64,000 bases of DNA from Octopus vulgaris (Eukaryota). Of the stretch, positions 21,001-48,000 are shown one piece after another; position 1 is the stretch's first letter; every line of letters starts with the position of its first letter. The stretch is from contig OX597834.1 of the NCBI GenBank assembly GCA_951406725.2, forward strand, positions 23,684,001-23,748,000. Reading direction: 5' to 3'. Position numbers: made by a program.

Positions 21001-24000
21001 GTAGGCAGAAATTCCATGCAGTGCAAGCTATGGACCCACAAGCAGTGCAGTGGAATCACAGAATCGTTAACAGAGAAAGGAAGCATTCAGACAGTTTATC
21101 ACAGCAAAAGATGAAATTTTTTTTAAAGATGGAATATATGACTTAGAGAAACGTTGGGTAAATGTCATAAATGAACATAGATCATACTTTGATTATATAA
21201 ATTAGTTCTCTAATGCTTCTGAAACATTTTATTATTACCTTTCAAATACATTTCATGTGTGACAACCTAATATACTGATAATAACTCATATGAGTACACA
21301 TTATGTGAAATGATAAGTAAATTAACACATGAGGGAAAAAAAAAATCAATGTTTCAGAGGACCACAGCTCTTTAACATCCTCCCTAAATGCCTGAGAGAC
21401 TTGCATGGTGTGGATGTGGGTTTCTTTAAAACTAAACTGGATCTCTTCTTGTCGGGGGTCCCAGATGAACCTACCTCACGACAGGAGACACAGATGCGGG
21501 CAGCGGCATCAAACAACCTTGTTGACCAAGTGCCACGTATCAGAGGTGGATTCACATATTAGTGTAGCTCATTCAGCAGTGGTGCCCCAGCATGGCCGCG
21601 GCCTTCAGGCTAAAACATTTTTAAGGATTTAAGTTTATAAAATTACTAATTACATCAATGTTGGGTGACATGCTGTGCTTGTGAAGACCTGTCAAGCCAA
21701 GTGGTTGTGGCCGATGCCAGTGCTGTCTGACTGGCACATAAAAAGCACCAATCGAGTGTTGGGCTTCATGGAGGCAGTGACAGATGACCAAGAACCTGGG
21801 CGATATACAATTCTGTGTATACCTGTCAAGCTAGATAAGAGCATAGTCATGGCTGATGCCAATAGCACCTAAAAAGCCCCCCCACAACATTCTTGGAGTG
21901 GTTGGTGTTAGGAAGGGCATCCCACCATAGAAACCTTGCCAAATCAGATCAGAACCTGGTGCAGCTCCCTGACTTACTAGTTTTCAGTCAAACTGTCCAA
22001 TCCATGCCAGCATGGAAAACGGATGTTATATGATGATGATGACTAACAAGCAAAAGAAAACAAAATAATTTGATCAAGAAACATTCAGTTGAACCAGTTA
22101 TTAGGATTTTATTTCCCTACAAGCTGAATTTTGATACAGAATCATGATGAATCATGATGAACACTGATATGTCTCTTTAGATGACTTTTCTCAGCAAATG
22201 AATTACCACACATGTCACAGTGGAATGGTTTCTCTCCTGTATGGATACGTTTATGAGACGTGACCTGACCAGCTTGACAGAACGATTTACCACAGATGTC
22301 ACAGTGATAGGGTTTCTCTCCTGTGTGAATGAGTTTGTGAGTAGTCAAATTACTACTGCCTGAGAATGATTTACCACAAATATTACACTGATATGGTCTT
22401 TCTCCTGTATGAGTCCGTTTGTGTTTACCTAATGCACTATTGACAGAGAATGATTTATCACAGATATCACAGTGGTATGGCTTCTCCCCTGTATGAATAC
22501 GTTTATGTCTAGTTAAGTTACTGCATATAGAGAACGATTTACCACAGATATCACAGTCATATGGTTTCTCTCCTGTATGAATACGTCTGTGTACAGTTAA
22601 CTCACCATTCTGAGAGAATGATTTACCACAGATGTCACAGTGATATGGCCTCTCTCCTGTATGAATATGTTTGTGAGTGTTCAAGTCACCAAGCTGAGAG
22701 AATGATTTACCACAGACATCACAGTGATACGGCTTCTCTCCTGTATGAACACGTTTGTGAGTAGTTAGGTTACCTTTTTGAGAGAAAGAAATTTTACAGA
22801 TATCACAGTTGTATGGTTTCTCTCTCGTATGAATAAGTTTGTGAGTAGTTAAGTCACTACTTCCAGAGAATGATTTACCACAAATATCACAGTGATATGG
22901 TTTTTCACCTGTATGAATACGTTTGTGTTTAGTTAAGTGACTTCCATCATAAAATGATTTACCACAGATATCACACTGATATGGTTTCTCTCCTGTGTGA
23001 ATACGTTTATGTTTCGTGAAATGGCTACTATCAGAAAATGATTTACCACAGATATCACAGTGATATGGTTTCTCTCCTCTATGGATACGTTTATGTGTAG
23101 CTAAGTGACTACCATCAGAGAATAATTTACCACAGATATCACAGTCATACGGCTTCTCTCCTGTATGAATACGTCTGTGAGTAGTTAAGTGACTACTTAC
23201 AGAGAATGATTTACCACAGATATCACAGTGATATGGTTTCTCTCCTGTATGAATACGTCTGTGAGTTGTTAAGTTACTTTTATGAGAGAATGACTTTTTA
23301 CAGATATCACATTGATATAATATTTTCCTTTTTTCTTTCTTAATATAGTTGGGGAAATTTATTCTTTGCCACTGTGTATTACGTTGGGCTTTTTTTTCAC
23401 ACATTTCATTTTCCATCATTCTTTATCTTTCTCCACAATATAGATGCTTTTTTTTTCTTCTGCTATATTTCCCTCAACTGTAATCTTGATAAATATTTGA
23501 AGATGCTGCAAACTCCCTTGTAATCCAATTTCAATTAGAATATAAAATCATTTTCTACACATTTCAAACAGAAAAGACAGGAAATTCTGCTATTAATTTC
23601 CATTTTTTGATGGTAATATTTTCTGTAGAGTCCTTCTTTCTTTACATGATGATAAATATTGATGGATCTTAGGCAAATAATTCTTTTATGGCATCATCAT
23701 CTATATTCTGAAATAAAAGGAGAACAAATATAAAATATAGAGGATATTTCTATAAAAAGTAGACATTTTGTTACATTATTTTTATTTGTGACGAATTTTT
23801 GGCATAATCTCTGGTAGCACTTCCCTTAATCAACCCAAAAAGGGTGAAAGACAAACCTGACCTCAATGAGATGTGTAAAGAGTGAGAAAAAATGCTGCTA
23901 AGCATGGACTAAGGATTTTGACTACTCCCCACCTAAGAATAATGAAAAATCCTTTCTAATATAGGCACAAGGCCTGAAAATCTGGGGATGGGGAGAGCTG

Positions 24001-45000: not shown

Positions 45001-48000
45001 TAATATTTTCCTCTCTTCTTTCTTAATATCATTGGGGAAATTCACTCTTTGCCTCGGTGTTTTATATTGGGCTTTGCTTTCACACATTTTGTTTTCCGTC
45101 ATTCTTTATCGCTCTCCACAATATGGAGATGTTTTTTCTTCTGCTATAGTTTTGTCAACTGTGATCTTGATTAATATTTGAAGATGCTGCAAACTCCTTT
45201 GTAATCCAATTTTAATTAGAATATAAATTCATTTTGTACACATTCCAGACAGAAAATTCAGCTATTAATCTGTGTTTTTTGCTGGTAATGTTTTTCATCG
45301 AGTCTTTCTGTCCTCACAAGATGATAAATATTGATGGATCTCAGGCAAATAATTCTTTTATGGCATCATCATCTATGTTCTGAAATAAAAGGAGAACAAA
45401 TATAAAATATAGAGGATATTTCTATAAAAAGTAGACGTTTTACTACATTTCTTTTATTTGGTTCAGGTTTTTGGCATAAACTCAAGTAGTACTTCATTTT
45501 AACAACCCGAAAAGAGTGAAAGACAAACCTGACTTCAATGAGGTGTGCAAAGAGAGAGCAAAAATGCTGCAAAGCATTTTATCTGATGGACTAAGGATTC
45601 CGATGGGGGGGGGGGTGAAATTTCCGCGGTTTACACTCCACCCCACACCACTCCCTATTTTCTGGACAAAAAGAAGTGTTTTGTGCGTATATTAACAAAC
45701 AGCAAAAAAAAAAATTTCTCCATGAAATGAGGGAGGGGCGGTTGAAATTTACGAGGGTTCCACATCACCTCACCTCGGTCAAAAAAAAAAAAGTATTTTG
45801 TGACACATTAGGAAGTCACCGTATTTCATTCAACTAAAAAAAAAAAGAAAATATTTTCCAATGATACGGGAAGTGGGGTGAATTTCCGTGTATTCCACCG
45901 CACTCCATCTTTTTTCTGGATAAAAAAGTCTTTTGTGGTATGTTGTGGTATAATTGATTAAAAAAAAATTCCAATAATTCCTGTGAGGGGGGTTTCTCAC
46001 CCCGCCCATTCTTTTTCCGAGCCAAAATAAGGAGTTTGCGGCATATTAGGAGTTCAGGGTACTTGATTCCACGCGAATAACCGAAGTTCTTTGGGGTTTT
46101 TTCTAGTGAAGAACGTGGTGGTGAACTTGTAAAAATTTACCATAGAGGATAGGTAGGTAGGGTAAACAAGGGCAAGTAAATTTTAAAAATATATGTAAGC
46201 TACGAGGAAATACATGGAGTGCTGAAACCAGAATTTCACCATGAGTTGTCAAGTATGTATAGAAATAAAGGTAAATGGCGACTAAACAATGTTCCGAAAT
46301 GACATTAAGAAATACAAACTTTCTCTTTGCGTTGATCTGAAGATATGGAGGAATAACGAGCATTGAAATGGAGTGTAGAAAGTAAAATACTGAAAGTATT
46401 AAGACAACAAAAGGCAATGTTAGCTAAAGCAAGTGTCTCAACTCGCTATATTACATATGACAGACTACCATATAGGAATTAAGACAACATCGTTACTTCA
46501 GGAAAATTTCTTCTTTACTTCACTTTCTTTCCATCATCTTTGAACACATCCAAACAAACGACCTGTACAATGTAAACGTTGTTTCTATCAATAATACTTA
46601 CATATTAATATAGAGCCATTGACGAAGATGCCACGATAGATTCAAGTAGTCACAACTTAGACTGGACAATGACAGCTTCAACACAACTTCTATATTTTAC
46701 AACAAACCTTCATTCAAATTTTTCACATCGACATATTAAAGAAAGCTACAGTATTATCTTTTCATAGTTAATTAGCAATCATCTCTAATTAACTGGATCA
46801 CTTAAATGTCAGTTGTAAACTAGATCTGTCCTAGAAATTAAAGATGTTTATCACACAACAGAATATATATATTTTATCCACTAAAATATGTAAAATTTGA
46901 AAATTCTTAGTTCTTATTATTATCGTTCTTCACCAAAAACGGCGTCAAAGCATGTATGTCCCTTACAATGATTTGTTCCCTTTGTTTTAATTATTTTCCT
47001 CGTTTTTTGCATAACGTTACAGTTTGAAAATGAAAACAAATCAACCCTTAACATCAATATTAGATGAATTACGGTATTCTAATGTCATATTTTTGTAGAA
47101 ACATTTTTATGTAACGTGGTGAAGGTAATTACTTTCAATGACATTTTTATGAGTTTTAATTTTTTTTTTAAATAAAACAAATCTATTCTTTTTTGGATAA
47201 CATTGTAATTTATTCAAAACATACTTCCCTCCCCATCACCGACGTTGGATGGTCATAACTTTCAGAAAAATGGGTTTTTTTTTAAATGACATTTTCTACG
47301 AATATGTGTTATATCATGTAGATTGCGAATATACAAACTTTTGGTGGGAAATGTGGGTGGGGAATTTCGGAAAATTCAACGAAGTCCACTTCAGCTCGTT
47401 TTAACTTTCAAGAAAATGGATATTTTTTAATGAAATTTTCTACAAATATCCGTCGTACTATGTAGATTCCGAGGACATAGAAATTTGGGAGGAAAACAAT
47501 TGGGGGGTTATTTTTGAGAACCATTTCCTACTCGGGTGTTGTTTCAGAACAAGTCGTCCATATTGGCTTTGTGTGCTGGTAGCATAGGGCCTGGAATTTT
47601 CCTACATGAAACTATATATTGCGTCCAACTCCCATTGCAGATATGCAATATTTTCAGGATTGTCTGGGAGCTTACCACTTCAAAAAAGAAGCTGTATTGG
47701 TTTTGCAAGGGCTCACTTGCACAATTTGACCACACATGACACAGCCAGTTCCAGTGACAACACCCATCCAACAGCAACACGCCCAGGTTTCAACACATCA
47801 CTGATCATAGATTACTTCACCATGGATCAACAGCAAATATACAACCTGTGAGCCAGACGGCAACACCCATCCAACAGTATTACAGCATCCCTTTCTTCGT
47901 CACCACCATCATCTTCTTAGTGTTGTCAACACCATCTTTCTACATACACATCTCAAGCTTTTCCTGTCTTCATACTCTTAATTGCTTTATCTACCAAGGT

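What the first reader, a model, noticed from the sequence alone, without database searches (positions are those of the whole stretch)
22142..45102. A-subfamily zinc-finger genes have constant ends and a variable middle
Seen: A1-A4 share the leader, a related first finger and the same terminal 5-finger block (ICx[26 protein letters not shown], EKxHLKRH-ISVHxDS), in coding or fossil form. The internal fingers differ in number and identity. A3 is fingers 1-2 of A2 fused inside finger 3 to the terminal block. Single fingers recur at different positions: SVSSHLTTH and SQNGELTVH in A1 and A4, SDSSHxxKH in A1, A2 and A4. Inference: unequal crossover and gene conversion between 84-bp units create new DNA-binding specificities combinatorially, as in PRDM9 and KRAB-ZNF arrays, but with no recognisable KRAB, SCAN or ZAD domain. 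The octopus C2H2 expansion is known; this finger-level swapping pattern is the part to examine.
Basis: partly seen in the sequence, partly recalled or inferred. Interest (0 to 1): 0.7.

Follow-up and report, generated by a model that had tools for sequence, protein, structure and literature searches.

The report
Zinc-finger gene cluster with shared ends
Four neighbouring zinc-finger genes keep the same order of landmark fingers and differ by gain, loss and mutation of whole fingers, and their shared last block is kept alike by copying between genes; this is ordinary for such gene clusters.

Summary
The pattern is real. A1–A4 share a leader, a first finger and a terminal block.

Corrections:
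- Only A1 is fully intact.
- A2 and A4 stop early, so their terminal blocks are untranslated fossils.
- A3 has a TAG in its leader.
- SVSSHLTTH is finger 2 in both A1 and A4.

The unit tree groups fingers by position, not by gene. The one out-of-order finger, QNGELTVH, can be placed in order without rejection (p-AU 0.27). Recurring fingers are therefore positional homologues, and I found no support for single-finger shuffling.

What is supported:
- In-register unit gain and loss: hybrid finger A3_03, a 159-bp duplication with hybrid unit A4_t17, and two identical neighbouring fingers in gene C.
- Gene conversion of the last four fingers plus about 120 bp of 3' flank. A1–A4 differ at 80/603 sites upstream but 9/444 there. 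A2–A3 show the reverse, 21/603 against 25/444 (Fisher 1e-7). Synonymous divergence is 0.015–0.075 there against 0.13–0.23 elsewhere. This holds in dead tails too.

The mechanisms are the known poly-ZNF ones. The organism was not established.

The parts
22142..23419 (-). A1: the only fully intact A gene. ATG, leader, 14 fingers, terminal block, stop.
   Evidence: ORF. 14 regex fingers. Pfam zf-C2H2 in 14 stretches. ATG position.
22020..22477 (-). A1 copy of the low-divergence tract: the VNSALGKH to EKSHLKRH fingers plus about 120 bp of 3' flank.
   Evidence: 9/444 differences from A4 against 80/603 in the 5' block. Coordinates.
27702..28637 (-). B1: a B-type 10-finger gene inside the interval. 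It is not an A gene. An 11th fossil finger follows the stop.
32199..33485 (+). A2 open frame: leader plus 14 fingers, ended by a frameshift and stop in unit 15.
33486..34448 (+). A2 fossil tail, collinear with A1 fingers 5, 6, 7 and 10-14. Units t15-t18 are decayed (74-89% to A1). Units t19-t23 are 96-99% to A1. VNSALGKH is present twice; the second copy is 77 bp.
33575..33801 (.). 227-bp dispersed-repeat insertion inside fossil unit t16, flanked by a 13-bp target duplication.
   Evidence: 10 other matches in the window. No tRNA found.
34120..34572 (+). A2 copy of the low-divergence tract. It is untranslated.
38493..38543 (+). A3 leader start, with an in-frame TAG after 16 codons.
38550..39182 (+). 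A3 remaining open frame: 7 fingers, made of A2-like fingers 1-2, a hybrid finger 3 and the terminal block.
38763..38846 (+). Hybrid finger A3_03. Its nt 1-14 equal A2_03 and the rest is ICxNL type. The junction lies between nt 6 and nt 26.
38847..39306 (+). A3 copy of the low-divergence tract.
43744..45102 (-). A4 open frame: leader plus 15 fingers, ended by a TGA in the linker after the first VNSALGKH finger.
43173..43743 (-). A4 fossil tail: four further VNSALGKH units (75, 84, 75 and 84 bp), then [16 protein letters not shown] and a last finger with a 2-bp deletion.
   Evidence: TRF period 75, 4.1 copies, 90% matches.
43582..43665 (-). Hybrid unit A4_t17. Its first 21 nt are GSSNLTTH type (1 difference). 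The other 63 nt are identical to A4_15. It marks a 159-bp tandem duplication that also copied the TGA.
   Evidence: a 159-bp shift gives 91% identity, and the best 159-bp pair has 4 differences. Also.
43053..43506 (-). A4 copy of the low-divergence tract. It is untranslated.
23234..23849 (-). A1 5' block: about 430 bp upstream, the leader and finger 1. Counterparts: A2 31762-32381(+), A3 38061-38678(+), A4 44917-45521(-).

Best explanation
This is a cluster of single-exon poly-C2H2 zinc-finger genes built from 84-bp finger units. The window holds four A genes, two B genes and one C gene.

The four A genes are segmental duplicates of one ancestral array. They still carry the same ordered landmark fingers: finger 1, the pre-SDSSH finger, SDSSH, ICx[26 protein letters not shown] and EKxHLKRH.

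They diverged in four ways.
1. Whole units were gained and lost in register. Gains are tandem duplications of 1-3 units. The main loss is a 15-unit loss that left a hybrid finger in A3.
2. Substitutions accumulated preferentially in the recognition helix.
3. Truncating mutations left A2 and A4 with untranslated fossil tails and put a nonsense codon in A3's leader.
4. Gene conversion between loci keeps the last four fingers plus about 120 bp of 3' flank nearly identical in all four genes, whether or not they are translated.

Shown here: the collinearity, the hybrid units, the duplications, the truncations and the discordant divergence pattern.

Inferred: that the discordance is due to gene conversion or unequal crossover; that changes in the middle fingers alter DNA target choice; and that the proteins bind DNA at all.
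For: Collinearity.
- The unit tree has 86 A and B units; the 23 C units were left out.
- Starred clades are positional: EKSH 100/100, QAGQV 100/99, GSSNL 99/96, VNSAL 100/99, A1_03+A4_10 100/97, A2_14+A4_11 100/94, A1_07+A2_t17 100/99, A1_10+A2_t18 99/89.
- Gene labels cluster no better than shuffled labels: 54 changes against a shuffled mean of 52.5.
- The identity matrices show a single diagonal of anchor units for each gene pair.

Unit gain and loss.
- A3_03 is a hybrid finger.
- A4_t17 is a hybrid unit that marks a 159-bp duplication.
- C_16 and C_17 have 0/84 differences.
- A4_02, A4_08 and A4_13 differ at 3-6 of 84 sites (3 for 02/08 and 08/13; 93% for 02/13).
- A2_08 and A2_11 are 93% identical.

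Conversion.
- Differences in the 5' block (603 sites) against the terminal tract (444 sites): A1A4 80 v 9 (p 6e-12), A1A3 65 v 20 (2e-4), A1A2 61 v 21 (0.0015), A2A4 60 v 22 (0.0034), A3A4 53 v 25 (0.057), A2A3 21 v 25 (0.13, opposite direction).
- The ratio A2A3:A1A4 is 21:80 in the 5' block and 25:9 in the terminal tract, p 1e-7. This contrast does not depend on overall constraint.
- The A1-A4 window scan gives 10/492 differences inside against 106/760 outside; 0 of 300 permutations reach it.
- The longest concordant run for A1-A4 is 11 polymorphic sites in the tract, pairwise permutation 0/5000.
- Synonymous divergence in the terminal block is 0.015-0.075. In leader plus finger 1 it is 0.13-0.23 for the non-sister pairs.
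- Flank identity is 85-89% for non-sister pairs.
- In A2's dead tail, t15-t18 differ from A1 at about 58/334 sites, while the adjacent t19-t23 differ at 11/329.

Helix bias.
- Of 162 amino-acid differences in 34 homologous unit pairs, 72 lie at helix positions -1 to +6; 25% is expected.
- pN/pS is 0.76 in the helix and 0.36 in the framework, over 23 pairs with no unit used twice.
Against: - The global (all-pairs) permutation p for the A1-A4 concordant run is only 0.46, because A2-A3 naturally give long runs.
- The 5' block is mostly non-coding and the tract mostly coding, so the raw contrasts mix in constraint. The case rests on the ratio contrast, the pS values and the fossil tails.
- The A3-A4 contrast is not significant (0.057).
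- With four sequences and no outgroup, no conversion event can be given a direction or a date.
- A2 units t15 and t18 are more diverged than neutral flank (about 22% and 26% against 10-14%). I cannot explain this, and it inflates the contrast within A2's tail.
- pN/pS stays below 1 in the helix, so diversifying selection is not shown.
- QNGELTVH sits after SDSSH in A1 but before it in A4. A1_09 and A4_07 share a 65-bp identical core, so one ectopic single-finger exchange is not excluded.
- No population, transcript or binding data were available.
Confidence: 0.7

Rival explanations
1. Single fingers are moved between genes and positions by gene conversion or unequal crossover, so new finger combinations are assembled as in PRDM9.
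For: - A1_09 and A4_07 (both QNGELTVH) differ at 4/84 sites and share a 65-bp identical core. They lie on opposite sides of SDSSH.
- They form a starred clade with A2_02 and A3_02, support 95/81.
- A1_02 and A4_02 differ at 1/84 sites, while the neighbouring finger 1 differs at 8/84.
Against: - Only 1 of about 10 best-matching unit pairs between A1 and A4 is out of order.
- Holding A1_09 with the collinear A4_12 is not rejected (p-AU 0.268).
- The A1_09/A4_07 link rests on about 4 helix nucleotides.
- SVSSHLTTH is at position 2 in both genes.
- Units within arrays match only 69-80%.
- The clear conversion tract makes the genes more alike.
Confidence: 0.12
2. No exchange at all. All four arrays are deletion derivatives of one long ancestral array, and the ends are constant only because selection preserves them.
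For: - The landmark fingers are collinear.
- The A2 tail is collinear with A1 fingers 4-14.
- The AU test does not reject a collinear placement of the one out-of-order unit.
Against: - Synonymous divergence in the terminal block is 3-4 times lower than elsewhere.
- The block is equally conserved in the untranslated tails of A2 and A4 and in about 120 bp of 3' flank; A1-A4 differ at 1/121 there.
- The distance ranking reverses between blocks, p 1e-7.
- Young in-array duplicates and hybrid unit t17 show gains, not only losses.
Confidence: 0.08
3. Assembly or polishing artefact. Reads from paralogues were mixed, which made the terminal blocks look alike and mis-sized the VNSALGKH run.
For: - The affected stretches are the most repeat-like in the region: units 94-100% identical and a 159-bp period.
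- No read data could be examined.
Against: - Each copy keeps private differences and private lesions: a 77-bp against a 75-bp short unit, different stops, and a 2-bp deletion only in A4.
- The tract boundaries fall at different places for different gene pairs.
- The flanks are unique.
Confidence: 0.08

Closest known systems
Vertebrate poly-ZF / KRAB-ZNF gene clusters (Emerson & Thomas 2009, PMC2604467; I read matched passages and section 10)
   Same: - Genes are clustered paralogues.
- Paralogues differ in finger number. That paper found only 1 of 24 lineage-specific expansions with equal finger counts, and named whole-finger deletion or duplication as the commonest cause.
- It found short GENECONV-detected conversion tracts among paralogues.
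- Change is concentrated in the DNA-contacting positions.
   Different: - No KRAB, SCAN or BTB domain was found here. There is only a conserved leader of about 33 aa.
- Here conversion covers a fixed 3' block and continues into untranslated fossil tails.
- pN/pS above 1 is not shown here.
PRDM9 zinc-finger minisatellite (recalled; only search listings were seen)
   Same: 84-bp finger units. Unit number changes by unequal exchange.
   Different: - There is no PR/SET or KRAB part.
- Units here match only 69-80%, and finger order is conserved between paralogues.
- Only the untranslated VNSALGKH run in A4 behaves like a minisatellite.
Cephalopod C2H2 expansions (PMC12513265 outline and matched passages; PMC9795677 and PMC9068888 matched passages)
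   Different: - The taxon was not established by any search.
- In the passages I saw, those papers work at gene level (phylogeny, dating, expression).
- 'Gene conversion' occurs 0 times in PMC12513265 and in PMC9795677. In PMC9068888 it is used only for protocadherins.
Concerted evolution of part of a gene family by gene conversion between loci (general concept; invoked for cephalopod protocadherins in PMC9068888)
   Same: A tract with low divergence at synonymous and non-coding sites, flanked by older divergence. Distance ranking differs between regions.
   Different: The tract is small, about 450 bp. Two of the four copies are already non-functional.

Membership tests
Krueppel-type poly-C2H2 zinc-finger genes | Tandem C-x2-C-x12-H-x3-H fingers joined by TGEKP-like linkers | tested here: met
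   101 regex matches in the window. 96 of 104 full-length units are intact, with consensus linker TGEKP. Pfam zf-C2H2 matched in 14, 14, 6, 14 and 9 stretches in the five ORFs.
Krueppel-type poly-C2H2 zinc-finger genes | 84-bp periodic coding array in one exon | tested here: met
   TRF finds period 84 in every array. The ORFs are uninterrupted.
KRAB-ZNF / SCAN-ZNF / ZAD-ZNF / BTB-ZNF | An N-terminal effector domain (KRAB, SCAN, ZAD or BTB) | tested here: not met
   None of these families matched in 5 of 5 window ORFs. 0 of 123 intergenic ORFs of 55 aa or more between 18000 and 52500 matched any Pfam family. Exons shorter than 55 aa or lying outside the window would be missed.
KRAB-ZNF-like cluster dynamics | Paralogues differ by whole-finger gain and loss | tested here: met
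   Coding finger counts are 14, 14, 7 and 15. Hybrid units and tandem duplicates are seen.
KRAB-ZNF-like cluster dynamics | Positive selection at DNA-contact residues (dN/dS above 1) | tested here: inconclusive
   Amino-acid changes are enriched in the helix: 72/162, and 50/162 at the contact positions. But pN/pS is 0.76 in the helix against 0.36 in the framework. No codon-model test was run.
PRDM9-type zinc-finger minisatellite | PR/SET domain upstream of the array | tested here: not met
   No such Pfam match.
PRDM9-type zinc-finger minisatellite | Near-identical units apart from contact codons | tested here: not met
   TRF matches are 69-80% for the arrays. Mean unit identity is 73%. The exception is the untranslated VNSALGKH run, with 90% matches.
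PRDM9-type zinc-finger minisatellite | Allelic variation in unit number and order | not testable with these tools
   Only one haplotype is available.
Concerted evolution by gene conversion between loci | The tract is less diverged than its flanks at silent and non-coding sites | tested here: met
   pS is 0.015-0.075 against 0.13-0.23. A1-A4 differ at 1/121 in the 3' flank against 19/123 further out and 80/603 upstream.
Concerted evolution by gene conversion between loci | Relationships among copies differ between the tract and the rest | tested here: met
   A2A3:A1A4 differences are 21:80 upstream and 25:9 in the tract, Fisher 1e-7. Inside the tract, informative sites support all three splits, 3, 7 and 1.
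Concerted evolution by gene conversion between loci | Paralogues within a species are closer to each other than to their orthologues in a sister species | not testable with these tools
   No eukaryotic genome collection was on hand.

The most novel reading that the evidence does not exclude
The constant 3' cassette (four fingers plus the proximal 3' flank) is a preferred conversion or crossover segment. It acts as a homology handle between paralogues. Whole 5' arrays could then be joined to a common end, with A3 as a possible product, and dead copies would keep serving as sequence donors. This would be a cassette-exchange way of making new zinc-finger genes in an effector-less invertebrate family.
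Probability: 0.12. Interest if true: 0.55.

Novelty: new member of a known kind. Interest (0 to 1): 0.3.

Why it matters
The locus is a compact, readable example of how a poly-zinc-finger cluster diversifies. Finger order is conserved. Units are gained and lost in register. Changes are biased towards the recognition helix. One block is kept uniform by copying between genes rather than by selection alone.

This is a caution for dating such expansions from sequence distance and for dN/dS tests, because conversion resets both.

If the source is a cephalopod, finger-level analysis of this kind was absent from the cephalopod C2H2 papers I could search. The mechanisms themselves are the known vertebrate ones.

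Tried and rejected
Searches that led nowhere.
The whole-A1 search and the terminal-block search on residues 285-424 were swamped by generic vertebrate poly-ZNFs. Only 8000 candidates were scored, and the best identity was 61% or less. They say nothing about family size or taxon.
- The leader search on residues 1-42 found no candidate.
- The profile of three leaders against 1.84 billion representatives gave 3 hits at E of 0.001 or better. Only P0228 (501 aa, full-length leader match, B-like) looks related. P0226 is an unrelated repeat protein.
- The Atlas search on the leader gave only generic C2H2 clusters at 0.80-0.82, which is the noise level.
- Rfam gave 0 matches in the window.
- ARAGORN found no tRNA in the A2 insertion.
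- Albertin et al. 2015 is not held.

Ideas considered and dropped.
- That an upstream segment shared only by A1 and A3 (23850-24425 and 37480-38060) shows recombination. Lineage-specific deletions and repeat insertions explain it equally well.
- That the fossil tails are rescued by splicing. Frameshifts and stops lie inside the terminal blocks themselves.
- A window scan that included the repeat in the 3' flank was dominated by that repeat. I reran it without the repeat.
- One script failed on an index error and was corrected.

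
Full report
**What is there**

The window has no N. A regex scan for C-x2-C-x12-H-x3-H in six frames gave 101 matches, all in 84-bp register, in seven arrays.

- A1 is 22142-23419(-). It has 14 fingers and is intact.
- A2 is 32199-33485(+). It has 14 fingers, and a frameshift and stop fall in unit 15.
- A3 is 38493-39182(+) and has 7 fingers.
- A4 is 43744-45102(-). It has 15 fingers and ends at a TGA in the linker after its first VNSALGKH finger.

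A B-type gene (B1, 27702-28637) lies inside the interval. A second B gene and a 23-finger C gene lie further on. Every protein query was one uninterrupted window ORF.

**Checking the observation**

I cut the arrays into 109 units, fossils included. The leader, finger 1 and the block ICxNL / VNSALGKH / GSSNLTTH / QAGQVTSH / EKxHLKRH are present in all four genes.

In A2 the block is wholly fossil. Units t15-t18 are decayed, and a 227-bp dispersed repeat with a 13-bp target duplication sits inside t16. The second VNSALGKH copy is 77 bp, and a stop lies in the QAGQV linker.

In A4 everything after the first VNSALGKH finger is fossil. Four more VNSALGKH units follow, and the last finger has a 2-bp deletion.

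A3's leader has an in-frame TAG.

A3 is indeed A2 fingers 1-2 plus a hybrid finger 3.

One claim is wrong: SVSSHLTTH is finger 2 in both A1 and A4.

**Are fingers swapped between positions?**

A maximum-likelihood tree of the 86 A and B units (the 23 C units were left out) groups units by position, not by gene. The four terminal fingers, ICxNL, finger 1, SDSSH, the pre-SDSSH finger, and A1_06, A1_07 and A1_10 with their A2 fossil partners all form clades, most of them starred. Gene labels are no more clustered than shuffled labels.

The identity matrices show one diagonal of anchor units for each gene pair. The A2 fossil tail follows the order of A1 fingers 4-14.

The only out-of-order match is QNGELTVH (A1_09 and A4_07: 4/84 differences and a 65-bp identical core). 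Holding A1_09 together with the collinear A4_12 is not rejected (p-AU 0.268). So the recurring fingers are positional homologues separated by unit gains and losses. One ectopic exchange remains possible but is not demonstrated.

**Unit gain and loss**

- A3_03 is a hybrid whose junction lies between nt 6 and nt 26.
- A4_t17 has the first 21 nt of a GSSNLTTH unit (1 difference) and 63 nt identical to A4_15.
- A4_t17 marks a 159-bp tandem duplication with 4 differences in 159.
- That duplication also copied the TGA, so it happened in DNA that was already untranslated.
- C_16 and C_17 are identical neighbours in an open frame.
- A4_02, A4_08 and A4_13 differ at 3-6 of 84 sites (3 for two of the pairs), and A2_08 and A2_11 are 93% alike.

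Arrays therefore also grow. They are not only deletion products of one long ancestor.

**Exchange between genes**

I aligned the four genes over two blocks.
- The 5' block is about 430 bp upstream plus the leader plus finger 1 (603 sites).
- The 3' tract runs from the last VNSALGKH unit to about 120 bp past the stop (444 sites).

| Pair | 5' block differences (of 603) | 3' tract differences (of 444) |
|---|---|---|
| A1A2 | 61 | 21 |
| A1A3 | 65 | 20 |
| A1A4 | 80 | 9 |
| A2A3 | 21 | 25 |
| A2A4 | 60 | 22 |
| A3A4 | 53 | 25 |

A2 and A3 are the closest pair upstream and the joint most distant pair in the tract. A1 and A4 are the reverse. The 21:80 against 25:9 contrast gives Fisher 1e-7, and it does not depend on how constrained each block is.

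A scan for A1-A4 finds 10/492 differences inside against 106/760 outside, reached by 0 of 300 permutations. A GENECONV-style run test gives 11 concordant polymorphic sites in the tract. The pairwise permutation is 0/5000. The all-pairs p is only 0.46.

Selection on the protein does not explain this.
- Synonymous divergence in the terminal block is 0.015-0.075. In leader plus finger 1 it is 0.13-0.23 for the non-sister pairs, and in SDSSH and ICxNL units it is 0.09-0.31.
- Array-masked flanks are 85-89% identical for non-sister pairs.
- Two of the four copies are untranslated.
- A1-A4 differ at 1/121 sites in the 3' flank but at 19/123 in the shared repeat just beyond.
- In A2's tail, about 58/334 differences from A1 in t15-t18 give way abruptly to 11/329 in t19-t23.

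Inside the tract all three possible splits have informative sites (3, 7 and 1). A2 and A4 share the extra short VNSALGKH unit. This suggests more than one conversion event.

**Open points**

- A2 units t15 and t18 are more diverged than the neutral flank, and I have no explanation.
- A3's 3' half is either the product of an internal deletion or of a crossover with another copy. A2_t18 differs from A3_03 at 24/82 sites, while A2 and A3 differ by 3.5-5.6% elsewhere. This favours a crossover, but it depends on the unexplained t18.
- With four sequences and no outgroup, no event can be given a direction.

**Other properties**

Amino-acid differences between homologous units fall mostly in the recognition helix: 72/162, and 50/162 at positions -1, 2, 3 and 6. 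pN/pS is 0.76 in the helix and 0.36 in the framework. The helix evolves faster, but positive selection is not shown.

Pfam finds only C2H2 families in 5 of 5 window ORFs. It finds nothing in 0 of 123 intergenic ORFs of 55 aa or more.

**Comparison with what is known**

Emerson & Thomas 2009 (matched passages and section 10) describe the same features for vertebrate poly-ZF paralogues: whole-finger gain and loss, short conversion tracts, and change at contact residues. Wells et al. (preprint passage) note that ZNFs tend towards internal rearrangement and gene conversion.

The cephalopod C2H2 papers I could search work at gene level. 'Gene conversion' is absent from PMC12513265 and PMC9795677. 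In PMC9068888 it is used only for protocadherins. A search for octopus + zinc finger + gene conversion returned 13 papers (11 listed). In the three of them that I opened, the phrase was not applied to octopus zinc-finger genes; the other listed papers I saw only as titles and abstract openings. Supplements were not read.

**What stayed unchecked**

- The source organism.
- Family members elsewhere in the genome.
- Read-level support for the assembly.
- Transcripts.

The closed collections were not used. The bacterial and archaeal genome collection was not relevant.

**Verdict**

This is a real and well-structured, but ordinary, poly-zinc-finger cluster. Unequal exchange and gene conversion are supported. 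Combinatorial single-finger swapping is not.

Noticed in passing
58133-58300 (-): Two neighbouring fingers of gene C (C_16 and C_17) are identical over all 84 nt. This looks like a very recent single-unit tandem duplication inside an open frame.
   Followed up: partly
33474-33558 and 33954-34035 (+): A2 fossil units t15 and t18 are about 22% and 26% diverged from their A1 partners. That is well above the 10-14% of neutral flank. The units between them (t16, t17) are at 11-12%. I have no explanation.
   Followed up: partly
25433-26103 vs 46187-46865: A non-coding block about 2 kb upstream of A1 and A4 is 93.7% identical. The proximal upstream region of the same pair is 85.1% identical. In this block A1-A2 and A2-A4 are 86-87%. 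It may be another A1-A4 conversion island.
   Followed up: partly
23150-23233 vs 44833-44916 (-): Finger 2 of A1 and of A4 differ at 1/84 nt, while finger 1 beside it differs at 8/84. This could be a short conversion tract, chance or selection (about p 0.002 before correction, my estimate).
   Followed up: partly
23066-23149 vs 44161-44244 (-): A1_03 and A4_10 differ by 10 non-synonymous and 0 synonymous changes. This is not significant on its own (about 0.14).
   Followed up: no
21897-22019, 34573-34709, 42930-43052, and near 57370-57444: The same dispersed repeat lies about 120-130 bp downstream of the stop in A1, A2 and A4, and just downstream of gene C. There are 11 other matches in the window. 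In A3 a 280-bp repeat insertion (39304-39583) precedes a different copy.
   Followed up: partly
27599-27704 and 48870-48942 (-): Both B genes stop right after finger 10 and are followed by a degenerate 11th finger.
   Followed up: no
23708 (A1), 31907 (A2), 38206 (A3), 45380 (A4): A conserved polypyrimidine-AG motif lies about 290 bp upstream of the ATG in all four A genes. It could be a splice acceptor of a 5'-UTR intron. In-frame stops separate it from the ATG.
   Followed up: no
35183-35428 (-), 40159-40740 (-): Open frames with Cys-rich and polymerase-like looking text sit between the genes. They had no Pfam match and are probably decayed mobile-element remains.
   Followed up: partly
P0228 (library protein, not in the window): This is the only credible match to the leader profile. 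It is a 501-aa protein with a B-like leader, seven fingers, a long non-finger stretch and a further finger. Its origin is unknown.
   Followed up: partly
26945-27003, 27410-27475: Two (TA)n microsatellites of about 30 repeats lie between A1 and B1.
   Followed up: no
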